DNA of 64,000 nucleotides from Octopus sinensis (Eukaryota). Under the pieces are notes generated by a model. The model saw nothing but the letters and a program-made list of their open reading frames with translations. It searched no databases and was not told the DNA's origin. Both the position numbers and the translations under genes were made by a program. The stretch spans positions 17,918,001 through 17,982,000 of the forward strand of contig NC_042999.1 of NCBI RefSeq assembly GCF_006345805.1, given 5' to 3'. Of this stretch, positions 337-58,388 are shown piece after piece (positions within the stretch are counted from its first letter, which is position 1; each line of letters opens with the position of its first letter).

Positions 337-593
337 TGTGTCTATATGTGTATGTATGTGTGTGTGTGTGAGTGTGTATGTTTGTGTGTCTGTCCCCCCC
401 AACATCGCTTGACAACCGATGCTCGTGTGTTTACGTCCACGTCACTTAGCGGTTCGGCAAGTGGGACCGATAGGATAAGTACTAGTCTTACAAAGAATAA
501 GTCCTGGTGTCGATTTTCTCGTCTAAAAGCGGTGCTCCAGCATGGCCGCAGTCAAATGACTGAAACGATTAAAAGAATAAAAGAATAAAAGAA
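122..593 (+). mobile_element. SINE family A (Octopus-type, tRNA-derived) with internal (TA)n(TG)n microsatellite
   Basis: B-box-like GGTTCAGTC, body CACCTTGGGCAAGTG...GACGGAAACTG, 3' part GTGCTCCAGCATGGCCGCAGTCAAATGACTGAAAC and (AAAGAAT)n tail. Homologous copies at 12850, 41857 and 50040. Confidence 0.85.
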
Positions 594-739
594 CCCTCCT
601 AAGTATCCTAGCTGTCCCTAATAACACTGTTTTCAGCAGCTGCACTAAGCTGGGTTTTATGCTTATTTCCTCTATCCATCTGTTCAAAGCTTTGCGGAAA
701 ATTCCAAATGCACCTATAACTACTGGAAAGCATTCCCCC

Positions 740-1355
740 AGATCTTCCCCTCTCTGTGGTGGAGCGCTCCTTCCTCAGTAGGAGGTCTGCGTTTCATCCT
801 CCTCACTCCATCCTGTAAGGAATTTCAAACTCGTGCTGATATCCACTGCTTTGTGCGCCGCGTTACGTTTTGTGCGCTCTTCCGCGACACTCCACCCGCA
901 TCAAACGAGGAGGACTGCTTCACTGACCTGGGCCGCCGACCATCCCAGTGGACGCCTACTCCTGGGCAGTTTCAAGCAGTGGATCTTTTTGCGGGCGCCT
1001 GCCAGTGCACTGTGGACCGGTTCAACTTCTCCAGGCGTCCGTGTTGTCTCAACATCTCCCCAGCCGAACTCTCGGCTCTTGGTTCCCTCCGGCGGCGCAC
1101 TGACATCGTTATTAAACCGGCCGACAAGGGTGGAGCAGTGGTGGTATGGCGCGCGGACCTACAAGGCCAAAGCTCTCCGTCAACTCCATGACACCTCCTT
1201 CTACTGCCCTCTGTCCTCTGACCCCACGACCAGCTACCAACAGACGGTCTTCTCTACGATCAATGATCTCATCTCGTCCTCCCGTCTCCCCTACACCGCC
1301 TCCAACCTCATTGTCCGAAACCCCTGCACCCCCAACTTTTACTTCCTCCCAAAAT
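740..1355 (+). pseudogene. Penelope-like element RT N-terminal fragment (frameshifted)
   Basis: Motifs NISPAELSALGSL..DIVIKPADKGGAVVVW and FYFLPK, split over two frames, are the PLE pre-RT motifs (ADKG; FYxLPKIHK). Confidence 0.85.
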
Positions 1356-1358
1356 CAA

Positions 1359-1566
1359 GAGAGAGTCGCCATGGTAGATCGTTAGCCACTGCATACATTT
1401 TTGCCTTTCCTTCTTTCTCTCCTTGTTTTTTCTGTGCCCCTTTCTGTAGAAGAGCGTAGGCTCGAAACGTAAAATACTTTTTCTATTCCTGAGCGTTATA
1501 CTAATACATCTGTTTGTTTTGTACATCACTTGTCTTCGTCTTTTGTTTTTTTCGTAAACTCTCCCT
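1359..1566 (+). mobile_element. ~210 bp hammerhead-bearing short element ending in (TA)n, copy 1 (probable PLE terminal repeat)
   Basis: Homologous to 1987-2196, 7330-7521 and 14819-15011(-). Contains CTGTAGA-AGAGCGTAGGCTC-GAAACGTA at 1444-1471. Confidence 0.8.
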
Positions 1567-1573
1567 ATATATA

Positions 1574-1604
<31 letters not shown>

Positions 1605-1677
1605 ATATTAGGGAATAAATCCAAATTTACAAGGAAAAATCAGATTTAAGATTGAATCCAATTTGATAGTAAAATAT

Positions 1678-1902
1678 TATATTATATCAAATTAGAGACA
1701 AAACCACTATTATGGAAATCAAACAAAGAAAGACTTAATACAATACATAAAATAATTTATATAAATTAAAATTTAACATATGAATATGAATATGGTTGTT
1801 CATATGTTAAATTTTAATTTATATAAATTATTTTATGTATTGGATTAAGTCTTTCTTTGTTTGATTTGCATAATAGTGGTTTTGTCTCTAATTTGATATA
1901 AT

Positions 1903-1905
<3 letters not shown>
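1678..1905. repeat. Near-perfect inverted repeat (~106 bp arms, ~14 bp loop)
   Basis: ATTATATCAAATTAGAGACAAAACC...AACATATGAA is mirrored by TTCATATGTT...GGTTTTGTCTCTAATTTGATATAAT with about 2 mismatches. Confidence 0.95.
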
Positions 1906-1936
<31 letters not shown>

Positions 1937-1986
1937 ATATATATATATATATAGATATATATATATATATAATATATATATATATA

Positions 1987-2196
1987 GCCATGTTGATTCG
2001 GTAGCTTCTGCACGCATTTTTTTTCTCTCCTTGATTCTTTTCGTGTTTCTTTTCTGTGTATCTTTCTGTTGAAGAGCGTAGGCTGGAAACGTAAAAGACT
2101 TGTTTTATTTATATTTCTGAGCGCCATGCTAATATAATTGTTTGTTTGTATTCCACCTGCCTTTGTCTTTTGTTTATTTTCATAAAGCTTCCCGTT
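1987..2196 (+). mobile_element. Hammerhead-bearing short element, copy 2, flanked by (TA)n on both sides
   Basis: Homology to copy 1; HHR motif at 2061-2098. Confidence 0.8.
2061..2098 (+). ncRNA. Minimal type I hammerhead ribozyme motif (variant core CUGUUGA)
   Basis: Stem I TCTTT/AAAGA, CTGTTGA, stem II AGC-GTAG-GCT, GAAA, palindromic ACGT stem III, GTA cleavage triplet. Confidence 0.65.
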
Positions 2197-2270
2197 ATAT
2201 ATATATATATATATATATATAGATAGATAGATAGATAGCCAGACAGATAGATAGATAGATAGATATACAT

Positions 2271-2302
<32 letters not shown>

Positions 2303-3724
2303 TACATATATATCACTATGATAATATAAACAATAATAAAGCAATGTGATTAAACAGACCAGTTTTTTAACAATCTACCTACACTTAACGTTTTTTTTTA
2401 TTCCCTCTTGAAACCAATAAGAAATGTTCTTGGTTTATATTACGCTAAACGTCAAAGAAACTTGGTTGTTTAAGGACATTTAAGATTATATTCTGATACA
2501 CAATTATGTCAATTTCGGCGTAATTAAATCTTCCGAAGCATACTAATGATGTTTTAAAGAGATATTAAGTTATTATGAGAAAAGGGAACTTTCATAATTA
2601 TGGTAGAATGGATCTCTTTCGTGTCGAAGTATTTCAGCATAAATATGAGAAGAAATAATGTATTTTCAAATGGAAGTGAGAGGACTGATCCTCAATATTC
2701 CGTCAACGAATGCAATAAGTGTAAAATATAATTATGTTACAAATCTTAAGCCATGGTTTGTAATATTCAAAAAGAAGATAGATATATGTGGGGAAAATAT
2801 TTAGCTTACACAATGTTTCGTACGACACTGGCATTGAAATAATAAATTAAGTATATATCATTCAGCTAAAAGCTGATAATGGAACTGCGTATGTAAACGT
2901 ACAGTTGAATATTTTAGTGCAAAACCGGTAATAAAATATTGATACGGAGAAGGAATGAGATTTTATCGAATAAAACGAAAGGTTGAAGATTTTAGAAGTG
3001 CTCTTTAGTGCGAAGAGAAAGATTAAAAGGTATCTTAACTTACTTCGAAAACTGAGAAATCGCAAAGACATATAAATATACATTAGCTTTTAAACGATAA
3101 AAACTCTCAAAACACCGCAAATCTATCTAGCAACACGCTGAAAAATTTTGCAAGCGTAGTTTCGGAAGCTGCTCTACTGTATTCCGAAACGATCACTAAA
3201 GAATTAAGAAAAGAAATACAGCGATGCTGTTGTTATTGTCGATGATGCTGATGCTGATGATGATGATAATGACGATGGTAGTAAAGCAAAAATATTAACG
3301 GGGAAAGGCATGCACTGGCTCTCGTACACAGATTCTGTCTAGTGATTTCCTTTAAGATGTTGGACGGCCCGAGGCTATAGTGGAAGTTACTTGCCTAAGA
3401 TGAAGCATAATGGAATGGAATTCGAAAACACATGATCTTCGGCAAACATCTATGTCGGCGCCTTCGTAACATCTTATACACGCACACACCCACTCGCACA
3501 CACCTACATAGATACATACATACAAACAAACAAACACCAGAAGTAACTACATGTACCACGTACATATACATACTACTTACATATACATATGTGTAACAAA
3601 AACTCCTGAGAAAGAACAATATACAATTACACAAATACACAAGTCTACCTTCATCAAAGAACTAGATCCCATAAATATTACTAATATTTAAGGGTATATT
3701 CAAATTCTGTTATGGTCCATATTA

Positions 3725-3830
3725 CATTTCATCCTTTCGGGATCCATAATATAAGTACCAGTTGAGCACTGGGGTCGATGTTTATCGACCTGTCCCCAAA
3801 CCTGTACTTACTGGCCTTGTGTCAAAATCA
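3725..3830 (+). mobile_element. SINE family B 3' fragment
   Basis: TTTCATCCTTTCGGG...AAGTACCAGTTGAGCACTGGGGTCGATG, shared with the copy at 5452. Confidence 0.65.
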
Positions 3831-3859
3831 TAACTATATTTGTGGTGGAAGAGGTGCCA

Positions 3860-4560
3860 CCTGTTTCTCGCAAATGCGGGAAAAATACAGAAAGAATGTT
3901 GTCGTAGAGTTAGAGCTATATTAATGAGCGAACATTATGGGAGAAACAAGATTGATGCAATCAGTACCTTGCCTATTTGTGTTGTGGCCTACAACTCTAA
4001 CATCGCAAAATGGACCTTCATTGAGATCAGTAAAATTGCTGTAAAGATACTCAAGTTTCTCACACTGCACGACAGGGTCCAATCAAAGGCAAGAAGATGT
4101 GACATGTCTACAAATATGAACCTTACAAGCAACTAATGCGTTCAGTACGAGAAGAAACCAAGAAGTACATTCAGAGGTTACAAATCAACAAGACTGTGGT
4201 ATAGGTCATGAAACAGAAACCTCTGTGATGACAAAACAGATAAAAAAATAAGACCAGCTAAATCAAGAGAAATCAATCGTTGTATCACGACAACATATTG
4301 AAAAATAAGATATTACACTGCAATACGTCGCGAGGAAGAGTTACTCCTGGTGAAGATACAAATATGACCCATCTTCGGCTGGACCTAAATCAGACGCAAC
4401 GGGCGTCATTATTGCAGCTGAGCATCAGTCCCTGCCCACCAGAAACTACCAAGGAAGGAATCTTAAGACGGTGCTATTCCTGTATGCTGCTGTTTTTGGT
4501 ACATCCAAGAAAATATTTAACTGCGGCATTTTTGGAAGCTCTACGTGAGGCTTAAATGAC
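3860..4560 (+). pseudogene. Degraded non-LTR retrotransposon fragment (post-RT region, R4/Dong-like)
   Basis: RRVRAILMSEHYGRNKIDAISTLPICVVAY resembles the RxRxILxSxLxxxNKxxAIN motif of RLE-type non-LTR elements. Multiple frameshifts. Confidence 0.55.
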
Positions 4561-5451
4561 TATATTGATGATCATGATTGAATTTTCGTAATTCAGACAT
4601 TTATATGTAGGTACGAATTGCGTCGAGGAAGATGCTACACTATTAGGCGTTGTTTGCTGAAACCAGTAAACTTGGACTAGAATCAGATACCATCTTCCGC
4701 CATTGCAAAAAGGAAAACATCATTTGCATTAATAATTGTTAAATACAGCAAAAAGATATTTACACTAAATTTTATACAATTCCTAAGCCAGTTCTAAAGA
4801 CGCAGACGCTTTTGAATATACATATCCTATTAGCTTTAATCTTAAAAATATAATAATGATAAGGACACAGAGTTGATAAAATCTCCATTAGAAAACGATT
4901 AATGCTACAGAAGAAATTTCTAACTTTATAAAAATATAAATATAATATGAAAAGGAAAGAAGGAATTAGCAAGATGGTAATCCGTAAATTGCAACTACCT
5001 AAACACATTATGTACTAAAAAGGAGATGTAACACAACAGAAATGTGAGATTGAACTTTCATTTTGGACGCTTAGAATTAGCTTATCTAAATAAGAGGTTA
5101 TATATTACTTCTTAAGCGAAGTCATCCTGATGGAGTGTTCTATCTGTAAAATATTTCATGTGATATCCACATAAGTGCATTAGAATAAATTTAATATATA
5201 ACAGATCTGCTGCGTATCTCCAGTGAAAGATATATGAAGAGGTTTCCTGCTGTGAACACTAAATTCATACGTTGTGGCCATTCGACAGAATTATTATGGT
5301 AAACGGAATTCATGCACATTAAGATTGACATATCAAAATTAGTAATAACGATACAAGAGCAGTCATAATTTCGACAAGATTTAGGGTAGATACCGAAAAA
5401 GTATCTTAACATACAAATAGTTGACAGGCATAGAAACATTGGTATCTTGAA

Positions 5452-5734
5452 GGCAGAGAGGTGGAAGAAACGTTAGCACGCCGGGCGAAACGCGTATCCG
5501 TATTTCGTCTGCCGTTACGTTCTGAGTTCAAATTCAGACGAGGTCGACTTTGCCTTTCATACCCTCTGGATCGATAAATTAAGTACTAGTTACGCACCGG
5601 GGTCGATGTAATCGACTTAATCCGTTTGTCTGTCCTTGTTTGTCCCCTCTATGTTTAGGCCCTTGTGGGTTGTAAAGAAATAGGTATTGCGTCTGTCTCT
5701 AAATAGGAGGTGAGCTATGGGCAATAAAGAAACA
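5452..5734 (+). mobile_element. SINE family B, full length with 20 bp target-site duplication
   Basis: B box GAGTTCAAATTC and central GCCTTTCAT..TCGATAAATTAAGTAC. TSD AGAAACAT(T/G)GGTATCTT(G/A)AA at 5432-5451 and 5735-5754. Confidence 0.9.
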
Positions 5735-6848
5735 AGAAACATGGGTATCTTAAAATATTTGCTCAACTATTATATTTACATAACTGATTTTTAACAAAAA
5801 ATTGTTTCTGAAGTATTTTCATCATATGCAACATAGGGCATTTACACTCAGGTTCATATTCAGCACGCCATTTCCATCACTCTGGTTATATCTATTATCC
5901 TCGATACGATATAAGGATTCTCCTCCATTCAATAGACAATTAGGGAGTACTATCCGTATGCCAGTAGCTATTTGAACTATTGCAGGCATCAATATGCCTT
6001 TGGTGATGCATGGATATTATGAAACGAGATGGCTTTCTTGAATTTTCTTATTACATAAAAAGCATTGCTAGTGTATTTCCTTTTAGCAACAGACAGAAAC
6101 TATTTATGTATATTTTTACACATTTGTCATACGTTAATATTTAGATGCTTGTGTAACGGTTACGGTATATAATTTCGTATTAGCGTTATGCAGTATATGT
6201 CTTATTTAATTGAGTTTTATAGAATGTTCCGCCGAAAGCACTCATGCTATCTATTTTCAATATAACTTCCGGAGTGCTTACTTGAAGATCTCTTCAGATA
6301 TCGATAACCCATTATAAAATACTGATGTCAAACATTTATCATATATTATTTACTTTACTCCCGTTATATCAAGTGCTATGAATTTACAAAATCTCAACAG
6401 GAAAACCCGGACCTTTCTTTTCATCATCGTAGCTTTCGTAAGATGCAAGAGAAGATTACACACTCTCATAGAAATATATTTATTGTTTCCGCCCTTCTCT
6501 GTAGAGTGCCCTATCAACTGAATTACATTATGTAGTAAGCCTTTCGTGCACAAATGAACCATTGTGCCACATTGTAAAGCATAATATTTTCCATGATGTT
6601 GTATCTTATGTTAACTATTTCCCGTACGTTCAGAGTATGTTACGATAATATTCTTATGAAAGAAGCGCTATATATTGAAGAGATTTCGATTATTTGGGAG
6701 AAAAAGCACTGAAAATGATACAAGCAAATACACACGCGCATCTCATACATGAGAAGACAAAATAAATGGCTTCAAAATATCTAGGGCGTTGTAAGCATTC
6801 TAACTGAATAGAATATTCAGGTTACCTATCAATCTATGTACCTATCCG

Positions 6849-6879
<31 letters not shown>

Positions 6880-6896
6880 GTCTATCTATCTATCTG

Positions 6897-6978
<82 letters not shown>

Positions 6979-6990
6979 AATATATCTATC
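6880..6990. repeat. (TCTA)n microsatellite
   Basis: Direct reading. A second long (TCTA)n tract lies at ~47268-47400. Confidence 0.95.
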
Positions 6991-7137
6991 TATCTCTCTC
7001 TCTATATATATCTGTCTTGTTTCCCCGTTGTTATCATACTTAAGTTCGTATTTCATGCTGTTTTCGTATTTCGTAATTCATATATTGTATACGTTTTATG
7101 ACGACCTGCACCCATATATTCATATACATGCACACAC

Positions 7138-7233
<96 letters not shown>

Positions 7234-7329
7234 TTGAATTTTTTTACCTCCTGGATACTTACCTCTAGCTGCACGTCTCTTTCACGGATCAAACTGACTT
7301 TGTTATTGATGTGAAATCCTTAAAATATA

Positions 7330-7521
7330 CCACGACCGTCTATACATTTTTCTCTTTGTTTCTCTCCGTGTTTCTTTTCTGTGTATCTTTCTGTTGAAGA
7401 GCGTAGGCTCGAAACGTAAAAGGCTTGTTTTATTTCTATTCCTGAGCGCCATACTAATACAATTGTTTGCTTGTACTCCACCTGCCTTCATCTTTTGTTT
7501 ATTTTCGTAAAGCTTCCCGTT
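7330..7521 (+). mobile_element. Hammerhead-bearing short element, copy 3
   Basis: Very similar to copy 2; ends CCCGT|TATATAT. Confidence 0.8.
7386..7423 (+). ncRNA. Minimal type I hammerhead ribozyme motif (core CUGUUGA)
   Basis: TCTTT-CTGTTGA-A-GAGC-GTAG-GCTC-GAAA-CG-TA-AAAGG. Confidence 0.7.
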
Positions 7522-8289
7522 ATATATGTTTGTAGTATGTATATAAACAAATATATTTTTCATTTATATTATTATATGATCAAACGCCACGCATCCATTT
7601 CCATGTACGTTTATCTTAATGATTTTGATGCGACACTATCCTGTAGTGTTCTCTCTCTCCCTTTTTCGTATTCTCCCTCTTCTTTCTCTAATTCTTTTTT
7701 CTTCCCTTCTGCACTTTCGTTTTCTCTCTCATACTTTCTCTAATTCTTTTTTGTCTCCTTCACCGTTTTCTATCTGTCTGTCCGTCTCTCTTTCTCTTTT
7801 ACTCTCTCTCTCTCTCGTTGCTCACACATCGTTCATTTTCCTTTTCCTCACGTGATCATCTTTCGTTTCTTTCACTCTGTCTTACAGACTAGACGCATTC
7901 TTTTCTATCCTCTCCTATCTTTTCTCTTGTTAAAGATAATATTCCTCAGCGTTGCTGTCTTACCTCGTCTGGCCTAAAGGTCCTTCATGTTTGTTTTCGT
8001 TTGGTTTGTTGTATGTCTCCATTGTCCTGTTTCTGTCACCATCTTTGACTCTTCGCAAAGCCAAATTTTATTTTAGTTCGCGGGGGCAACTACTTTTTCG
8101 AAGTCTCATATTGTCGTTAATTGCTCGAAATGAGGGTCGTTTTATATGTTACTTGACTTGTTTATCACCTTTTTCTCTCATTGTTCGCATACCAAAGTTT
8201 GTCTTCGTATTTCATGTTACGTTTTGTGACGTCCTGTAAACATATATGCATGTATATATATATATATATATAATATATATATATATATA

Positions 8290-8321
<32 letters not shown>

Positions 8322-8691
8322 GTTTGAAAAGTTCGGATATACAAACAGTTAGATCTACATGTGCTTCTAACAGTCTGTGCGTCTAGGATTACGAAGGCTT
8401 CCCACTGAAGAACCTGGCCTGGCAAATATATTCTGTGTGTTTGCTAAAAATAGGTAGAAACCGTTCGGTCTGGGATATAGCTGAGATGAAAATGTTTTTA
8501 GTTTTCATTCCTTCCATGACTTAATCCCTTTTTGTGTTTCTTGCACTACGCTTCCATATTTGGAAGCCTTTTATTATATATTTCTATACGAAAAATATAT
8601 AGTCTAATGACTAATTAGTCTTTTGTGCTAGGCCACTAGTAATAATAATTTATTTTATTACCGTATTTGATTATGTTTATATATATATAGT

Positions 8692-8746
<55 letters not shown>

Positions 8747-8753
8747 ATATATT

Positions 8754-8852
<99 letters not shown>

Positions 8853-9017
8853 GTATATATATACATATATATATACATACATATATATGTATGTATGTAC
8901 ATATCTGCATGTATATATGCATATATATTTTTTATTTATATTATTATATGATTGAATGATTGAACGGCGCGCATCCACTTCCAAGAGAGTTTATCTACCT
9001 ATCTAAACACACACACG

Positions 9018-9049
<32 letters not shown>

Positions 9050-9656
9050 CTTATATATGTATATATATATATGAATGTATACACGTATGTATATTATATA
9101 TGCATGAATATACGTATGCATGTCAGGTGTGACTTGTGTATGCAATTATATAATTGGCAGTGAGCAGCGACAAGTTAACTTATCGTTGTCAGCGTCAGCG
9201 GTGCTTAGGGAAGAGATAATCTATACCGCTTGTACAATGGTAGTTGTTCCAATACTATTTTTCACACACTTATAACGATCTTTTTATTTGTATCTGAATA
9301 CACAGGCAATTGTACTAAAACGAAAACCAGATGAGTTAACCGAAACTCATTATTCGAATATTAACTTCATAATAGGGGAAGCGTTTGCCAATTTATTTAA
9401 TGAATTCTCTGTTTTTTTGTTGTTGTTCATTTCACCAATTAACCACGCGCCTGGTTTATATGGTTCCGTTAACTTAAGCATAACGCTTTCGCGAATAATA
9501 AATAAATCTCAAAAAATTTATTGTTTCTGTTTTGTTTGATCATTGATGGGGAATGTCTTGAAAATATCAAACCTCTCGATATTAAAAGCATCTCACACAT
9601 ACAGGCACATCAAGAAGCTTTACATAAATAGTTACATACACACCAATATATATACA

Positions 9657-9707
<51 letters not shown>

Positions 9708-9851
9708 CGTATATATTTATGTATATGTATATATCTATATCTATCTCACTATCTCTCTCTACATATATATGCATGTATGTATATGTATATGTATATATCT
9801 ATACCTATCTATCTATATATATATATATGCATACATACATATGTGTATATA

Positions 9852-9912
<61 letters not shown>

Positions 9913-9959
9913 TATATGTCCATTTATGACTATATGTATATCTATGTATATATTTAATG

Positions 9960-10529
9960 TTGTATTTGGGGATGGTCATTTTTTGCCAATAAACAGACAC
10001 AGTATATATTTTTTCATCACTCGTTTATTACTCTTCTTATTTTATAATTTTACCACGTATCCATTGTTCGGAGATCTTTCATCACACACGTGTGACTCCA
10101 TCAGCGACATTTTTCCTTTCCGCGTGTGTTCTTGCTCCACTAACTGCATTCTGTTCTTCTGAGATGTGTATCCTTACGTGCGCATGTTTGTGTCCTTGTT
10201 TGTGTGTGTGTGTATGAGTGTGAACGCGTGTGTGTATGTACGTGCCCGTACACATACACACGCACGCACACACATACCAAAGGACACAAACGCATGCGCA
10301 CATAAGTTTACACATCTTAGCAGAACAGAATGGAGTAAGTGGAGCAAGAACACACACGAAAAGTAAAAGGGTTGCTGAAGACGTCAGAGATGTGTGACGA
10401 AAGATTTCCAGATATTGGAATTGAGTTAACAAAATACAATAAGAACCGAAATAAACGAGTGAAGAAGAAAATATATGTAATTCTTGTGTTTATTTTGCAA
10501 AGAAAACAAATGACTCTTCCGAAATACAA
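9960..10529. mobile_element. Diverged fold-back element (~250 bp arms) with a hammerhead motif in each arm
   Basis: Arms mirror each other, e.g. GTGTGTTCTTGCTCCACT / AGTGGAGCAAGAACACAC. HHRs at 10065-10109(-) and 10371-10413(+). Confidence 0.8.
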
Positions 10530-10815
10530 TACCTGTTTCAACACACGATTTCACATCAGTAATTTTCTCAAAACGAATTGATAAAGGTATACATCTATCT
10601 ATTTATATAAATGTTACAGTACTGTCCTAAACCTAATATATAAATATACATACATACATACAAACATATATAGGACTACACAGCCACAGCAGGAAATGTA
10701 TCAGGACATGAAATTTAAAAGCCGGACTAGACTAGTTTATGCGCAACTACATTGTCTCCCGAGACAAAAAGGATGCCAGCCAATATATAATATATATATA
10801 TATATAATATATATA

Positions 10816-10852
<37 letters not shown>

Positions 10853-11790
10853 CAAACATTGAGGTCAAAAATTAATAATTATTAATCAATTTCACCACGT
10901 TCAGTATGCAAAGGACATTCAAGGCGAATTCACATTATTACATTATATAAAAGGGCTTAGTAAATAAATTAATGTGCCGCATACTGAACTCATTAGAAAT
11001 AGCAGCTAAAACCTTTTTTAAAACTATTCTATACTTAAAGAATCTCTCTCATATATAGTGTTTGGTAATTACTCACAAAATTGGTAAGGACATCGAAATA
11101 TCAAATGCTAAGGTTATTTGAGAACTACGTTTCAAGATTAGTCAAAACAACATTCTATATCAGCTCAGAAACCTGGATTTGGACTGAAAATAGATACCCT
11201 TCCGAAGATCTGCTCGTAATAAAGTGTCAACTCAAATAGCAGCGAAGGTTCTGTTCTCCCCTTTCCACCAGCGTGGGTAAATATCAAAACACTATGCTTA
11301 CGGAAATCCGAACCATTAATCAGAGGTGAGATAATTATATCAACAATTGAGGCAAAATTATTAATATTAATCAATTTCACCAAGTGTTCGTATGCAAAGA
11401 CCATTCAAGGCGAATCAAATTATTACATTATATAAAAGGGCTTAGTAAAATAAATCCACGTGGTGAAAAGAACAGAGACTTTCGCTTGTTATTGAATTTG
11501 TTGACACTGTTAGTACGAAAGATCTCGGAAGTATGTTCTTATTTCAGTGTTTCCAAAATCCAACCAAGGAATTTCTGAGCTGATGATAGAAGTGTGTTTT
11601 TGACTAATCTTGAAACGTAGTTCTCAAATAACCTTATTTGATTTTTCGATGTCCTTACCCCCAAACTTTTGTGAGTTGAATTAAGCAAACACTATATATG
11701 AGAGATCTTTAGTATTTAGAAATAGTTTAAAAAAGTTTTTTGCTGTATTTCTAATGTGTCAGATGCGGCAAGTAGTTATTTACTAATAAC
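10853..11790. mobile_element. PLE-type terminal-repeat structure: direct repeat A plus inverted repeat B, inside (TA)n
   Basis: A 10853-10968 matches 11340-11454 directly; B 10958-11276 matches 11456-11787 in reverse. HHR at 11576-11626(+) with mirror at 11119-11167(-). Confidence 0.8.
11576..11626 (+). ncRNA. Type I hammerhead ribozyme motif
   Basis: Stem I TGAG/CTCA, CTGATGA, weak stem II, GAAA-C-GTA-G-TT. Confidence 0.55.
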
Positions 11791-11910
11791 CTATATATAT
11801 ATATATATATAATATATATATAATAGACGCGCACAGATATACTGTGTGTCAAGACTTTATACTTCATGATGCCGTGCAGCTACCTTTTATACCTCGCTTG
11901 AGATTTATTG

Positions 11911-11956
<46 letters not shown>

Positions 11957-11958
11957 CA

Positions 11959-11995
11959 CTAGCAGGGATACCTGGTGTTGCCCGTGTTACATGCA
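11959..11995 (-). mobile_element. Probable Helitron 3' end
   Basis: Minus strand reads ...CACGGGCAACACCAGGTATCCCTGCTAG|T, similar to the Helitron end at 24801. Extent of the element is unknown. Confidence 0.45.
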
Positions 11996-12778
11996 ATTGA
12001 AGAAGTAGAATTTCCTGTTATATTTTCTGTAATGAACAGAAACACCTATGATAAATTGCAGATGAGGGTTCTTTCTCTCTTTACACACCCTAAAAACATT
12101 GCAATAATGACACATGTATCCCATGCTACTGATGTTTATGCGGAGATTCATAAATTCTAGTTTTATAAAACCTGTTAAAAGGATTTTACTCCTGAATAAT
12201 GGAGGTCATGGTGCTCTAAAGTAACTGTTGAGAATTTTTTAACTCGGGTATGCTATCTAGTATTTGAATTTCTTTGAAATAGGAAATATATGTATGCTCA
12301 CTGGGTTTGTAAAAGAGAGCAAAACTACTGGAAACCAAAAGATGAATGATCACAATAAGTAGACAGCTAGAGTACCTTAGTCTTTACCACTCCCAATGTA
12401 GGATTCCTCACCATACAGGTGTCAGGCACAGCCGTAAGATGCATTACGGGTCTATAGAAATTGGAAGGGCGTGACCCAACTCAAATAAACATTAACAACT
12501 GTGTGACGTGAGGGCTAAAGAGAAATGAAAGGGTCACCTCTGGGGTTTGCAAATGAACATTATATTGATATTTAACTGGACAGAATAAATTTACGATCTA
12601 TAAATGTCTTTGAATAACCAGTCACTCATCTGGGAAGGCGTTGAAATCAATGTTACCATCTGGGGACTATGTGTCACCCAGTGATAATAAAAAGACTGAA
12701 AGAAGATCTGCAGCCAGATAACTTTACTCAACACTTTGCATATATGAATATATACACGCACACGCACGCACACACACA

Positions 12779-12844
<66 letters not shown>

Positions 12845-12849
12845 ATATA

Positions 12850-13093
12850 TACTCTCTCTTTTACTCTTTATTCTTATAATTGTTTCAGCCATTTGACTGC
12901 GGCCATGCTGGAGCAGCGCCTTTAGTCGAGCAAATCGACCCCGGGATTTAATATTTGTAAGCAAAGTACTTATTCTATCGGTCTATTTTGCCGAACCGCT
13001 AAGTGACGGGAACGTAAACACACCAGCATCGGTTGTTAGGCAATGCTAGGGGGACAAACACAGACACACAAACACACACACACACACACACAC

Positions 13094-13157
<64 letters not shown>

Positions 13158-13322
13158 TACAACAGGATTCTTTCTGTTTCCGTCTATCAAATCCACTCAA
13201 AAGGCATTTCTCGGCCGGGGGCTAAAGCAGAAGACACTTGCCCAAGATGCCACGCAGTGGGACTGAACCCGGAACCAAGTTGTAGGTTAGTAAGCTACTT
13301 ACCACACAGCCACTCTGCGCCT
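12850..13322 (-). mobile_element. SINE family A, full length
   Basis: Reverse-complement homolog of 122-593, including head AGGCGCAGAGTGGCTGTGTGGTAAG and B box GGTTCAGTCCC. Confidence 0.9.
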
Positions 13323-13375
13323 ATATATATATATATATACACATAAACATATATATATCTATATACATATATACC

Positions 13376-13473
<98 letters not shown>

Positions 13474-13509
13474 CATATATATATGTATATATATGTATGT
13501 ATATATGTA

Positions 13510-13670
13510 TATTTCCTTTTTTTTCTGTAGACTTATCTGTTTCTCCTGTATCTGATGAAGAGCTATGGTCGAAACGAGGAACAATTACTTTTTTCCTTCG
13601 AGCGAAATATTAATACATTGCTTGTCCTACATTTTTGTATCTTTTTCTATTCATTTTCTTGTTTTCAAAT
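13510..13670 (+). mobile_element. Related (TA)n-embedded short element with degenerate hammerhead (canonical CUGAUGA)
   Basis: CTGATGAAGAGCTATGGTCGAAACG at 13552-13576; downstream GAGCG..ATTAATACA..TGCTTGT resembles copies 1-3. Confidence 0.6.
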
Positions 13671-13688
13671 ATATATACAAATATATAT

Positions 13689-13731
<43 letters not shown>

Positions 13732-13800
13732 ATAAATTATATATATATAATTTAACATCTAAGTTATATATATAATATATATAGTATATATATATATATA

Positions 13801-13841
<41 letters not shown>

Positions 13842-14667
13842 ATATATATATATACTTATATATATATAGTTGTATGTATAGATAGATATTTATATGCATA
13901 ATAAATACATACATACACTATGTATGTGAGTGTCTGTATGTACTTCTATACATTTGGAATTGATGTTTTGTTTTCCAGCCCTAAGCAAAAATTGTGAAAT
14001 CGATTTACATAACTTTATCACAAAATACTAGCGCGAATATTTTGAATAGAATTTTTAAAAACGTAACGATATATATTTGATCGGAAAATTTAATATATAC
14101 AAACAACAGAAAGGAATTAAGTTTGGAAAAGTGAAATACATCATGAACTCTGTCTAAAGTAGTGTAAAATATATTGCTGTCAATTTATTAGGTAATATTT
14201 CGTGTAAAACATTCAGATAAATATCGTAACTAAACAATAATTATCGATAGTAGATTTAGCGCTACATTAGAAAATTTGTGTGTGACTCTAGTTATATCAA
14301 CAACGCATTTGTTATTATCAATATTGCAAATTATGTTTGTTAGCTGTGTTTTGGAGCTAACAATAACAGCAGAAATGTGTGTTACACTCATTCCTTCCAT
14401 TTATGATAGAAAATTATAAATTTCCAATAAAAATATTTCAATATTTTTTATTGGTATACAATTTTGTAAAACTAGGAAAATATTCTGTAACAAAGTAAAA
14501 TGTTTAAAAAAATTATAAGTTAATGGTTCTAGTTATATTGAATAGCATCTAATAGAAGAAATGGGAGGAAATGTAAATCATACTACATCGTTATTGTACA
14601 GAACTCAAATTTAGCTGTGTACCATCGACAAGCCGAAAAAAAGACATGTCTACCAATATACATCATG

Positions 14668-14702
<35 letters not shown>

Positions 14703-14788
14703 CAATCAGACTTAGTGAGCGTGTGCACACACACCTATACGCATAAAGACATGTATATATGTACATAACACAGACATATGCATATATG

Positions 14789-14818
<30 letters not shown>

Positions 14819-14822
<4 letters not shown>

Positions 14823-15011
14823 AGAGTTTACGAAAAAAATAAAAGACGAAGACAGGTGGTGTACATAGCAAACAGGTGTATTAGTATAACGCTCAGGAAT
14901 AGAAAAAGTGTTTTACGTTTCGAGCCTGTGTTCTTCTACAGAAAGGGACACAGAAAAAACAAGGAGAGAAAAAATATGTGTAGTGGCTACCGATCTATCA
15001 TGACGACTCTC
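14819..15011 (-). mobile_element. Hammerhead-bearing short element, copy 4
   Basis: Reverse-complement homolog of 1359-1566 with the same 5' and 3' boundaries. HHR at 14911-14946. Confidence 0.8.
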
Positions 15012-18702: not shown

Positions 18703-18890
18703 TGCTTACATAACTGGAGTATATTAGCTGTGAATGGAGGCCCGGCGAAGATGTGAGTTATAAATCTTGGCACAGAGCTAGCTAAGTTAGACACGGCCGT
18801 GTCTAACTTAGCTAGCTCTGTGCCAAGATTTATAACTCACATCTTCGCCGGGCCTCCATTCACAGCTAATATACTCCAGTTATGTAAGCA
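18703..18890. repeat. Perfect 188 bp palindrome with no spacer
   Basis: 94 bp arms TGCTTACATAAC...GACACGG|CCGTGTC...GTTATGTAAGCA, centre at 18796/18797. Confidence 0.97.
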
Positions 18891-34170: not shown

Positions 34171-35069
34171 TATTATTTAAAACGTAGGTTCTAATATAAC
34201 GAATAACTACTAAGTTTGTAATTTAGCATTACAACTTACACTGACGAAATCTGCATGATGCAACTATTAGTGAGATGCAAATAAATATATAGATATAAAT
34301 CCTAATATTCCAAATTCTATATTTGCGACTTTCTGTATCATCAGCTGGGTTCTATTTAAAACATCATAGCTCATATATTAATCTATATTCTTTTTATGCC
34401 AGCGGAAAAATTCCCAGTAAAGTCATAATAATTACCAAATATTATTATGTTACAAGAGACATTAAACCACATTAGAAAGTAGAAAATATTGCAAAGATCC
34501 GCATATTTCTTAAACTGCAGACATAGGCAATCGATACAGTTTAAAATGTTAAAACATAAAACGCCAGCACGGTAGATCGTTGAGACATATTTCTTGATTA
34601 ATATTTAACCTTCTCTAAGCATATATTCTAAAATTGAACAGTTTACGCTGAATTGCTTCCTTTATAGCTTTATATAGTAAAACTATAAATCAAAATATTA
34701 CAAAATAAGGCATATCCGTAATCAAGAAATAAACTCACATCATTTTTACGAATATTTGTGTATTATTTTCTATTGAAGTTGCTTTCAAAACATTCTGAAA
34801 AATAGATATTCTAGGTTGTTTTATGCTTTCAGATACACATTAACGGAATAGATTAGGTACTTTATTATTACTTATTGAATAAGAATAATACGAAAGAAAA
34901 TACACATGGCATTAAGACACTGGGTTTCATGAAAATTATTGCTCTCCTCTTTATACGCTCTATGCAATACTGGTCTATACTCGCTTAAAACTTCGTTATA
35001 AAAGATGTATATTCAATTCTATACACACACAAACACACACATGCATGCATCCACACGCACGTGCACATT

Positions 35070-35152
35070 CGCCATAATAGATGGCTAGCCTCTACATATT
35101 AATTATTTTCTCTCCGTGTTTCTTTTTTTGTTTCCTGAGGAAGAGCGTAGGC
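35070..35152 (+). mobile_element. Truncated copy of the hammerhead-bearing short element
   Basis: GCCATAATAGATGGCTAGCC...TTTCTCTCCGTGTTTC...CTGAGGAAGAGCGTAGGC, cut before GAAA. Confidence 0.6.
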
Positions 35153-56074: not shown

Positions 56075-58388
56075 TGATCAACGAGGAGTTTGCATATTAA
56101 GTTGTGTTTGGAATTTTTCAATAAAGAGATTCTCCTTGTTAATTCTCTCCTGTGTGGTGATCCCGTCTTTACATTGGTAGAAGGGGAATATATAGAATTT
56201 GGGGTTTAAGTCTTTAGCACATGAGTCTAAGTGGTCACTCAGTGGAATTTGTCGGTTCCGGGAGATTTATTTGTTCTTTATGCACCGTTACTCGTTTACG
56301 TAACGGGAGACTCGTTTGTCCAACATAATTATGTTGGCAACCAGCGCATGTGAGAACGTAGATAAGGTTCTCGGAGGAACAGGAGAAGTTAGTCTAGATT
56401 TTAAACTTCGTACCTTGTTTGAAGGTAAATTCAGAGCCTTCAAGTAGAAAGGGACAGGTACCACAGTTTGAGCGTGCACATTTTTTTTACTGTTGGGGGT
56501 GGATGTCGTGTGTGAAGTTTGGCATTTGTCAAGAGTTTTTTTAAAGATTTGTGTTGCCTTTTGCATTTGAGGATGTTGTGTGTATTTATAATGTTTTTCA
56601 TTTTTGGGTCTGTTGACAGTAGACTGAGGTTTTGTATGATTGTGGTGTATGCTTCGATATTTTTGGGGTTGTGGGTGGAAATGTATGGAAGTATTTTGAG
56701 GTTGTGTGTGGTGTTAGGTTGGGTGGTTTTCAGTGTAGTGTTGTCTAGTTCTTTGGCGCGTTTTATTCCATACTCTATAAGGGTGGAGGGATATTGACGT
56801 TGTAATAGTGTTTTTTTGAGGTCTTGAAGGCGTATTTCTCGTGTTTTTGGATCCGAGACAATGGTGCATACCCTTTTAGCTAAATTGAAAGGGATATTGG
56901 TGTGTTTTGGGTGGCATGAACTAAAGAGGAGGTATTGTTGTGAGTCTGTAGGTTTGTGGTAGATGTCTGTTATGATTTGGTTCTTAGGTGTTTTTTAATA
57001 ATTAGGAGATCAAGGAATGGGAGATGATGTTTGCTTAATTCCATAGTGAATTGGATGTTGGGATGTATGTTGTTTAGTATGGTTTTGAATTCCAGGAGTT
57101 TTTCATAAGGTTCTTTCCATATGATGAAACAATCATCTAAATACCTTTTCCAGTTTTCCATTAGGTAGGTGTGGAAAACATGTCCAAATTTCTGGCTTGA
57201 TATTTCATAGAGTGACAGTTCGAAGTAACCCATTATGAGGTTCGCAAGGACTGGTGCAGCCTTGGTACCCATCGCAATGCCACATTTTTGACGGTAGTGT
57301 GGTGTCGTCGAAGAGAAAAAAATTGTTTGTCAGAATGAACTTAAGAGATTCTGTAATAAAAGACTTGTTAATGCGGTCAGGGAATGTCTCTGGGTGTTTT
57401 TCTAGCCAGAAGTCAATTGCCTCTATACCATACTCATGTGGAATGTTGGTGTAGAGGTTGATGACATCAAAGGATACCAGGAGTGCCTCCTCGTTAACTG
57501 TTTTCGGGAGGTGTTTGAGCATGTCCAGATCATCCCTAATGAAACTTTTGATGTGGGTAAGGAAAGGTTTCAAAAGGATGTCTAGGAAGTTACTCAGGCG
57601 GTGTGTTTCACAGGAGGTACCAGCCACGATGGGCCTTAGTTTTAGGTCCAACGGTGCTTTGATGTTGATGTGATGGATGTCAGTGAGAGTTTGCAGGCTT
57701 CGGTGATGTATTTGTTTTTATGGATTTTAGGAAGGCCATAAAAATGCCTGGGCTTACATTTGAAAATGGTGATATAATCCCTTTCTTTTTCTGTGAGTCC
57801 CTGACCGTGTTGGCGTATGAGTGTGGTGAGGTTTCTGATTGTTTTTTGCTGTTTGTAGTTGTTAATAACCTCATAGAATATGTTATTGTTAAGCATGGAG
57901 AACACTCGGTGTTTATAAAATTCCGGGTCCATAAGGACCACAGCACTCCCTTTGTCCGCTTCTTTGATGGTGAGGTTTTTATCCAGTTGTATGTCACGTA
58001 GGTTTTCCCATTCTTCCTTACTGAAATTGGATTTTACCTTGGTTTTGCTTGGGGTAAAGGGGAGACTCTGGATGTGTTTACAGAAATCGTCCAGTGTTTT
58101 ATTTCTCCCTTTTGGTGGTAGGAAGTTGCTTTTATTTCTGATCAATGAATCGTCCCCATTGTTGATATCTGTCAAAGCTTCTGTTAGGCGAAGTTTTCTG
58201 CAGAATTCAGAAACGTCATCCTTGACCATGGGTGTTCTTGGGGTGGGTGTGAATTTCAAACCTCTTGCTAGGATGTTGATTTGGGTTGGTGTCAGTGTTT
58301 TGCTGGAGAGGTTTATAATTTTTGTTTTCTTATTTTGGGTCTGTGTTAGCGGTGGTGTTTGTATTTTTCCCCTCTGTCTAAAAAATGG
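56075..58388 (-). pseudogene. PLE reverse transcriptase plus GIY-YIG endonuclease (frameshifted)
   Basis: IINLSS..ILARGLKFTPTP, IKEADKGSAVV, FYGLPKIHK, LRPIVAG, VSFDVINLYTNIP, MGTKAAP, WKRYLDDCF, LPFLDL, DIYHKPTDSQQYL; CARSNCGTC linker; LIYVLTCAGCQHNYVGQT..LRKRVTVH. Confidence 0.93.

What the first reader, a model, noticed from the sequence alone, without database searches (positions are those of the whole stretch)
1359..15011. ~210 bp element family with similar ends, a non-canonical CUGU(U/A)GA hammerhead core and possible Pol III boxes
Seen: four copies (1359, 1987, 7330, 14819-) end at a (TA)n tract, and most start near GTCGCCATGGTAGATCG; there is also a truncated copy at 35070 and a relative at 13510. 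The four copies carry U in place of the normally conserved A of CUGA, so this is a family trait rather than decay, while relatives have canonical CUGAUGA or CUGAGGA. The 5' end has an A-box-like TGGTAGATCG(G/T), and the stem II/GAAA junction GGCTCGAAAC resembles a B box about 90 bp downstream. Known: schistosome SM-alpha repeats combine Pol III boxes with an HHR. Inference: possibly a SINE-like, PLE-mobilised element whose ribozyme overlaps its promoter.
Basis: partly seen in the sequence, partly recalled or inferred. Interest (0 to 1): 0.7.

Follow-up and report, generated by a model that had tools for sequence, protein, structure and literature searches.

The report
Penelope retrotransposon ends with shared start
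These ~200-base repeats are the cut-off tail ends of a very abundant Penelope-type jumping gene, not a separate SINE; about half of the copies that reach one short motif begin right at it, likely because the element's RNA starts there, and nearly all carry a hammerhead-ribozyme motif with one changed core letter that likely slows or blocks cutting.

Summary
The copies and the CUGU(A/U)GA core are real; the Pol III SINE reading is not supported. Each unit is the terminal repeat (pLTR) of a Penelope-like element encoding RT and a GIY-YIG endonuclease; window 731-1356 is an RT fragment of it. The core has 13,792 exact genomic matches, only 140 with the canonical A6, while position 7 takes all four bases. 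3' ends are sharp at (TA)n. 5' ends are staggered from 8 to over 1,300 nt upstream of the core, with one strong hotspot: 24 of 53 position-ordered copies that reach a conserved CGCCATG motif start within 10 nt of it (one subfamily: 53 of 100 within 7 nt, 1 in the next 18). This likely marks an internal Pol II start, with reverse transcription primed at the element's own TA tract running off the RNA end. The 'A box' is not conserved, and T4+ runs separate it from the 'B box' in 49 of 50 copies. Only 1 of 100 copies starts at the predicted cleavage site. This scan noted the U6 core before in this genome and another; the hotspot was in none of the notes shown to me for this family.

The parts
731..1356 (+). 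Broken N-terminal RT fragment of the parent PLE (IVIKPADKG ... YFLPKI), joined directly to the pLTR copy; likely one insertion with an internal skip of about 3 kb
   Evidence: 81-89% identical to long copies
1364..1565 (+). pLTR copy, subfamily A (N7=A); starts at the 5' hotspot
1364..1385 (+).
1444..1471 (+). Minimal hammerhead core CUGUAGA-A-stem II-GAAA-CGUA (U6)
1566..1591 (+). (TA)n target tract at the 3' end
1987..2197 (+). pLTR copy, subfamily B (N7=U), flanked by (TA)n on both sides; starts 3 nt before the ATG; core at 2066-2093 with one stem II mismatch
7252..7342 (+). Fragment of the PLE 5' UTR (77% to the long copy L043) joined to the next pLTR copy
7342..7521 (+). pLTR copy, subfamily B, starting downstream of the hotspot; intact core at 7391-7418
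13510..13668 (+). Decayed pLTR of a sister family (loop II UAU, core CUGAUGA; relatives mostly A6, many with C4)
14820..15008 (-). pLTR copy, subfamily A, starting at the hotspot; core at 14941-14914 with stem II broken
35068..35152 (+). Decayed copy resembling subfamily G (N7=G); starts at the hotspot (CATTCGCC), cut off inside stem II; A6 likely private

Best explanation
The units are terminal repeats (pLTRs) of an RT- and endonuclease-coding Penelope-like retrotransposon, inserted at (TA)n, and their shared 5' start likely marks the element's internal RNA polymerase II start site. Shown: full copies read pLTR - TATATATAT - 5' UTR - ORF (RT, CX4CX2C linker, GIY-YIG) - pyrimidine-rich 3' UTR - pLTR - (TA)n; 3' ends fall at the element's own TA tract; 5' ends are staggered with one hotspot just before CGCCATG. 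Inferred: the RNA starts at the hotspot; the endonuclease nicks genomic (TA)n; RT initiates internally at the TA tract of either pLTR. Initiation in the downstream pLTR gives copies of any length; initiation in the upstream pLTR runs off the RNA 5' end after about 190-210 nt and gives SINE-sized copies with both ends defined. The hammerhead is a minimal type I motif with U6, kept under apparent selection, likely slow or off by default: U6 is predicted to pair with A15.1 and zip the core into a rod, and the templates were mostly uncut when copied. My odds: PLE origin about 0.97; hotspot = transcription start about 0.6; ribozyme attenuated rather than fully active or dead about 0.6.
For: Continuity with the 3' UTR, GIY-YIG and RT; RVT_1 match E=3.4e-6, below the curated cutoff; 923 homologues, the best 120 at 43-59% identity, several carrying PF01541. 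Upstream pLTR joined to the 5' UTR through a TA stretch in 23 matches. Hotspot: 24 of 53 within 10 nt of the ATG, 7 of the remaining 29 in the next 45 nt; hand count of the first 100 of 876 B2 matches: 53 within 7 nt of CGCC, 1 in the next 18 nt, 46 run through (the anchor undercounts short copies). Of 6 upstream pLTRs that reach the motif and continue into the 5' UTR, 4 start at it. Short and long copies interleave in the tree. Precedents: internal TATA-less promoter of Penelope (PMC2377424), internal RT initiation and uncut RNA as main substrate for PAc (PMC11167929), mouse L1 truncation peaks at CAGE starts near YY1 sites (PMC6454616). Core: 2 of 28 columns vary (N7, H17) against 45 of 153 outside among five subfamily majority rows, p=0.017; predicted U6-A15.1 pairing 0.17-0.93 by subfamily.
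Against: No RNA start was observed; the hotspot is indirect. Hotspot ends spread over about 7 nt and often include the C before the presumed +1 A. The 18 nt upstream of the hotspot lack AT/TA dinucleotides, so microhomology with (TA)n inflates the contrast, and the commonest B junction (TAT-ATCGCC) is a microhomology junction. The YY1-like match is the best in the element only in B1 (12 of 15), not in A, C or G. Two of 6 upstream pLTRs extend beyond the hotspot. The youngest subfamily B1 has few hotspot copies (2 of 18 in the tree, not counting L147). The core-conservation test uses copies found with the core pattern and is partly circular; no base pair covaries inside the family. Neptune versus Nematis was not resolved by a tree.
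Confidence: 0.7

Rival explanations
1. Pol III-transcribed SINE-like element whose B box overlaps the hammerhead.
For: Defined 5' start in many copies, 7-8 nt before the proposed A box; GCTCGAAAC has one mismatch to the recalled B-box consensus.
Against: A-box register has 3-6 mismatches in 50 of 50 copies; T4+ runs between the boxes in 49 of 50 (Pol III stops at T runs, established knowledge); no tRNA call; each subfamily examined has long copies running into PLE 3' UTR or ORF; no separate short clade.
Confidence: 0.04
2. Ordinary 5'-truncated PLE ends; the hotspot is a mechanical effect (microhomology with the TA target, an RT pause or a bound protein), not an RNA start.
For: The most frequent B junction joins (TA)n to ATCGCC through AT; the upstream 18 nt have no AT/TA; hotspot ends are spread over several bases.
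Against: 12 other AT/TA sites lie within 100 nt upstream in B1 without a comparable pile-up; the 25 nt upstream of the post-cleavage anchor, which hold TA sites, collect only about 5 of 100 ends; about 20 of 53 B2 hotspot ends include GAT, AGAT or CAGAT beyond the AT overlap; the hotspot recurs in subfamilies with different local sequence.
Confidence: 0.25
3. The short units now propagate on their own as a Pol II-driven SINE or retrozyme, possibly through circles from tandem copies.
For: Tandem arrays of hotspot-started units at 4 of 29 distinct top-scoring loci, one with a shared spacer and private changes; short copies would carry promoter, ribozyme and priming tract; retrozymes are reported to derive from pLTRs (bioRxiv 2026.07.22.740005).
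Against: No clade of only short copies (no support test); 46 of 100 listed B2 matches extend upstream; arrays could be DNA duplications; none of the 89 position-ordered copies showed a full tandem of short units in the flanks inspected.
Confidence: 0.18
4. The U6 motif no longer cuts at all and is kept as a rod-shaped RNA structure, for example a binding site for the PLE protein.
For: All 8 aligned copies can form U4-G16.2, G5-C15.2 and U6-A15.1; the two least diverged subfamilies (U7) zip most (0.93); 1 of 100 copies starts at the cleavage site; hammerhead mutants do not affect PAc insertion in vitro (PMC11167929).
Against: The only variable core positions are N7 and H17, the free positions of the hammerhead consensus, and H17 is A or U in 89 of 89; G8, A9, G12 and A13 are unpaired in the rod yet kept; a natural A6C variant keeps low activity (PMC3088659); canonical PAc also shows no reads at its cleavage site.
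Confidence: 0.3

Closest known systems
Minimal hammerheads in pLTRs of metazoan PLEs (Cervera and de la Pena 2014, PMC4209133), especially the Acropora digitifera row of its supplementary alignment
   Same: Stem I, CUGxNGA plus one extra base, 4-bp stem II ending GCUC, GAAA-CGU-H with palindromic minimal helix III, position in the pLTR, mostly single truncated copies.
   Different: Position 6 is U across the whole lineage; the published consensus is CUGANGAH and the descriptor used there would miss it.
Neptune/Nematis-type EN+ Penelope-like elements (Craig et al. 2021, PMC8557442)
   Same: RT followed by a CX2-5CxxC linker and C-terminal GIY-YIG with CxxC, DKG motif, partial tandems, inverted 5' pieces, microsatellite targeting.
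   Different: A strong 5' start hotspot inside the pLTR and the U6 core are not in the passages read; the clade was not placed by a tree.
PAc Poseidon element (PMC11167929) and D. virilis Penelope (PMC2377424)
   Same: Internal RT initiation downstream of the hammerhead; uncut RNA as template; internal TATA-less promoter in the pLTR.
   Different: Here copies end at a TA tract that matches the (TA)n target, whereas PAc initiates in an AC-rich stem-loop not homologous to the cut DNA; the hammerhead here lies about 0.7-0.9 kb upstream of the ORF start.
Mouse L1 T/G-type monomers (PMC6454616, PMC2894050)
   Same: Common 5' truncation point beside a CGCCAT-containing motif in the same orientation; subfamily B1 matches the printed YY1 site at 12 of 15.
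   Different: Different retroelement class; the match is not above background in subfamilies A, C and G; no binding or CAGE data here.
Animal non-LTR retrozymes (PMC7229834; bioRxiv 2026.07.22.740005) and schistosome SM-alpha (recalled, not read)
   Same: Short non-coding unit with a type I hammerhead, occasional tandem copies, pLTR origin.
   Different: Mostly monomers continuous with a coding PLE; non-canonical core; no Pol III promoter.

Membership tests
EN+ Penelope-like element | Single ORF with RT and C-terminal GIY-YIG endonuclease | tested here: met
   (L198: YIDD, IYCISC..YIG in one 519-aa frame); no fully intact ORF was found
EN+ Penelope-like element | Partial-tandem pLTRs, 5' truncation, inverted 5' pieces | tested here: met
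Neptune clade | CX2-5CxxC linker between RT and EN (shared with Nematis) | tested here: met
   CSRPRCRTC in L198 and L044; definition from PMC8557442
Neptune clade | RT phylogeny grouping with reference Neptune elements | not tested
Minimal type I hammerhead | Stems I and II, GAAA, NUH triplet, palindromic minimal helix III | tested here: met
   no covarying pair inside the family, loop II and stem variants in sister lineages
Minimal type I hammerhead | Core CUGANGA with A6 | tested here: not met
   140 of 13,792 have A6
Minimal type I hammerhead | Self-cleavage as a dimer | not testable with these tools
   needs an in vitro assay; 1 of 100 genomic 5' ends at the predicted site is not informative on activity
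Pol III (tRNA-type) SINE | Conserved A and B boxes | tested here: not met
   A-box register 3-6 mismatches in 50 of 50; B-box 1 mismatch, explained by the ribozyme (consensus recalled)
Pol III (tRNA-type) SINE | No internal T4+ terminator | tested here: not met
   49 of 50 have T4+ between the boxes
Pol III (tRNA-type) SINE | Independent non-coding family with one 5' end | tested here: not met
   staggered ends and long ORF-linked copies; no short-only clade
Non-LTR retrozyme | Tandem units each with a complete hammerhead | tested here: inconclusive
   arrays at 4 of 29 top-scoring loci; most copies are monomers
Non-LTR retrozyme | Abundant circular RNA | not testable with these tools
   only assembled contigs were available

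The most novel reading that the evidence does not exclude
A Penelope-like element makes SINE-sized, both-ends-defined copies by internal priming and run-off from a YY1/initiator-type Pol II start in its pLTR; these copies carry promoter, priming tract and a hammerhead that a single A6U change has turned into a switch (zipped rod alone, opened by a partner RNA or the PLE protein), and some propagate on their own. This would be a direct route from PLE to Pol II 'SINE' or retrozyme, and a natural regulated U6 hammerhead in about 14,000 copies.
Probability: 0.2. Interest if true: 0.7.

Novelty: new variant of a known kind. Interest (0 to 1): 0.42.

Why it matters
PLE promoters have been mapped for D. 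virilis Penelope among the papers read, and the role of PLE hammerheads is stated to be unclear (PMC8557442). A genomic 5' hotspot gives a precise, testable start site for a Neptune-type element and explains how PLE ends can look like SINEs in repeat annotations. A lineage of 13,792 exact copies with U6, beside a sister lineage of 11,702 with A6 (64 of its first 100 with C4), is a natural series for asking whether PLE hammerheads must cut, and shows that CUGANGA-based searches miss a large class. The U6 trait itself was already noted in this scan.

Tried and rejected
Rfam scan of the window: no hammerhead or tRNA among the 150 of 156 hits listed, mostly microsatellite miRNA noise. The repeat finder was swamped by microsatellites. 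The top-scoring DNA hits were not used for 5' statistics because they favour full-length matches to the query. All-against-all extension was confounded by microsatellites and replaced by reference-based mapping; two segmental duplicates (L164, L165) were dropped from 91, leaving 89; about 9 of the 36 copies scored as starting downstream of the ATG are divergent subfamilies or internal deletions, so the hotspot share is approximate. (W anchor) excludes many long copies and was used only for junction positions. Hotspot as a splice acceptor: rejected, because subfamily G has no AG there and many ends include the AG. Cleavage-site hotspot: none seen. RNA data: no RNA holder listed; contigs laid on one locus gave no starts or splice joints; this is no evidence on expression. 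Pfam found nothing in the window's broken RT fragment. Luense et al. 2017 (small PLE hammerhead variants), the likeliest place for a printed U6 variant, is not held. Searches for U6 in print: 'A6U' with hammerhead 0 papers; CUGUNGA-type words 7 papers, 6 listed, one on hammerheads and that one a synthetic design; two searches gave none; hammerhead + Penelope-like + Octopus gave one paper. File 1 of the PMC4209133 supplement and bioRxiv supplements were not seen.
Full report
Observation. The four copies, the truncated copy and the relative are in the sequence. The copies are 73-91% alike and fall into two subfamilies, A (1364, 14820-; core CUGUAGA) and B (1987, 7342; CUGUUGA). The host genome G000 has 2.72 Gb; it looks like an octopus genome (my inference from recalled repeat types and earlier scan notes, not tested). 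The core with positions 6-7 free has 13,792 exact matches against 0 for the reversed control; 140 (1.0%) have A6. Among 91 cores in 90 consecutive loci of contig C1, positions 6-7 read UU 44, UA 21, UC 14, UG 11, CC 1. U6 is fixed and N7 is free. The 20 A6 copies inspected are spread over the same subfamilies, as expected of later point changes.

What the unit is. Following copies upstream leads through a pyrimidine-rich 3' UTR into a GIY-YIG endonuclease. The DNA just before the first window copy (731-1356) is a broken RT fragment of the same element. Most of twenty longer regions show RT fragment, endonuclease, 3' UTR and the unit in fixed order, and four show a second unit upstream of the ORF. 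That upstream unit is joined to the 5' UTR by an intrinsic TA stretch, exactly where dispersed copies end in (TA)n. Locus L198 has a 519-residue frame with YIDD, a CX4CX2C linker and the GIY-YIG motif with CxxC; it matches RVT_1 weakly and has 923 homologues, the named ones from corals, sharks and snails. By the definitions in PMC8557442 (passages and section 6 read) this is an EN+ PLE of Neptune or Nematis type; Neptune is likely from the microsatellite target, but no tree was made.

5' ends. Thirteen B2 copies that pass the motif end at scattered points 39-1,737 nt upstream. Staggering is therefore real. There is also one strong hotspot. Of 53 copies that reach the ATG of a conserved CGCCATG, 24 start within 10 nt of it and 7 of the other 29 in the next 45 nt. 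A hand count of the first 100 of 876 B2 matches gave 53 within 7 nt of CGCC, 1 in the next 18 nt and 46 running through. The same pile-up appears in A, C and G (biased sample). Four of the five U6-lineage window copies start there. Among 23 copies that continue from pLTR into the 5' UTR, 6 reach the motif and 4 of these start at it. Short and long copies interleave in a FastTree tree of 55 sequences (4 copies had no landmark and were left out; no support test), though B1 has few hotspot copies and B2 many.

Pol III test. With recalled consensus boxes, the proposed A box has 3-6 mismatches in all 50 copies carrying the landmark, and the TGG of the 1359 copy occurs in none. A T4+ run lies between the boxes in 49 of 50 and T5+ in 42. 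Pol III would stop there (established knowledge). The B-box look-alike is the 3' strand of stem II plus GAAAC. No tRNA was called.

Likely mechanism. D. virilis Penelope has an internal TATA-less promoter in its pLTR (PMC2377424, passages). The anole PLE PAc initiates reverse transcription internally, downstream of its hammerhead, uses mostly uncut RNA, and its hammerhead cuts only with protein (PMC11167929, parts 1-2 of 4). In mouse L1, common truncation points coincide with CAGE starts near a YY1 site (PMC6454616, passages). I infer the same here: RNA begins at the hotspot, RT primes at the TA tract, and priming in the upstream pLTR runs off the RNA end after about 200 nt. The hotspot sequence resembles an initiator (TCAGTC, TCAGAT, GCATTC; consensus recalled) followed by CGCCAT. 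Against the YY1 site printed in PMC2894050 (passage), B1 matches 12 of 15, the best site in 5.2 kb on both strands, but A, C and G reach only 9-10, not above background, so YY1 is a lead only. Against the start-site reading: no RNA start was seen, ends spread over about 7 nt, and AT microhomology contributes. Microhomology alone seems insufficient, since TA sites near the cleavage site collect only about 5 of 100 ends.

Ribozyme. The motif has the architecture of published minimal PLE hammerheads (PMC4209133, parts 1-2 of 4 and supplement passages; consensus CUGANGAH; the Acropora row is close). Between five subfamily majority rows that differ by 6-28% outside the core, only N7 and H17 vary inside it (2 of 28 against 45 of 153, p=0.017). 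The sample was found with the core pattern, so this is partly circular, although A, B and C cores were also seen in copies found without it. No pair covaries in the family. U6 is predicted to pair with A15.1 (mean probability 0.53 for N7=A, 0.29 for C, 0.17 for G, 0.93 for U; 0 with A6), which would zip the core. A natural A6C variant cuts at under 0.1 per minute (PMC3088659, passage). One of 100 copies starts at the predicted cleavage site, so templates were mostly uncut or re-ligated, as for PAc. A sister lineage with a 3-nt loop II (11,702 matches) keeps A6 in 100 of the first 100 but has C4 in 64 (hand count), so a non-canonical core is common in two lineages here. Cutting is untested.

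Novelty and verdict. PLE ends with minimal hammerheads are known. I found no printed natural U6 core, but Luense et al. 2017 could not be read (title only, from a reference list). Other papers seen: bioRxiv 2026.07.22.740005 (part 1 of 5 and passages), PMC7229834, PMC13282606 and PMC4191386 (passages); SM-alpha is recalled only. Earlier scan notes already report the U6 clade in this genome and a U6 core in another; they are unchecked AI notes and not independent support. A shared start was noted for another, tRNA-headed PLE family of this genome. The contribution here is the refutation of the Pol III reading and the 5' hotspot with a testable start-site mechanism. Verdict: new variant of a known kind, interest 0.42.

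Noticed in passing
window 1371-1385; loci L093, L108, L129, L148: A 4-codon ATG-NNN-NNN-NNN-stop follows GCC at the hotspot in 47 of 50 sampled copies; divergent subfamilies have TGA or TAA at the same codon. Possible cap-proximal micro-uORF, or a by-product of a DNA motif.
   Followed up: partly
genome-wide; window 13510-13668: A sister PLE-like lineage with 3-nt loop II has 11,702 exact cores; 64 of the first 100 read CCGANGA (U4C).
   Followed up: partly
L005/L008, L009, L011, L012 (L061): Tandem arrays of 2-3 or more hotspot-started units separated by TA-rich spacers; L012 units share a spacer and private changes (retrozyme-like).
   Followed up: partly
L006/L053; L173, L175, L179, L184, L186, L188, L190: Tail-to-tail copies of different subfamilies sharing one (TA)n tract, and fold-back pieces at the 5' end of upstream pLTRs.
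   Followed up: partly
window 1596-1910: AT-rich fold-back repeat (arms 94% alike) between two TA tracts, with relatives in L020, L051, L109, L191, L213, L214; MITE-like or another TA-targeting element.
   Followed up: partly
window 18703-18890: Perfect palindrome of about 188 bp without a loop; no other copy in the loci fetched; may be an assembly artefact or a fold-back insertion.
   Followed up: no
window 395-581, 12867-13053 and 13200-13320: Pieces of common interspersed repeats that look like cephalopod SINEs (recalled); the first two form an inverted pair.
   Followed up: no
L060 1-4300: Long RT frames of an unrelated LINE-like element next to a broken PLE copy.
   Followed up: no
window 56894-56965 (-): Weak 75% match to the PLE coding region, probably an old fragment.
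   Followed up: no
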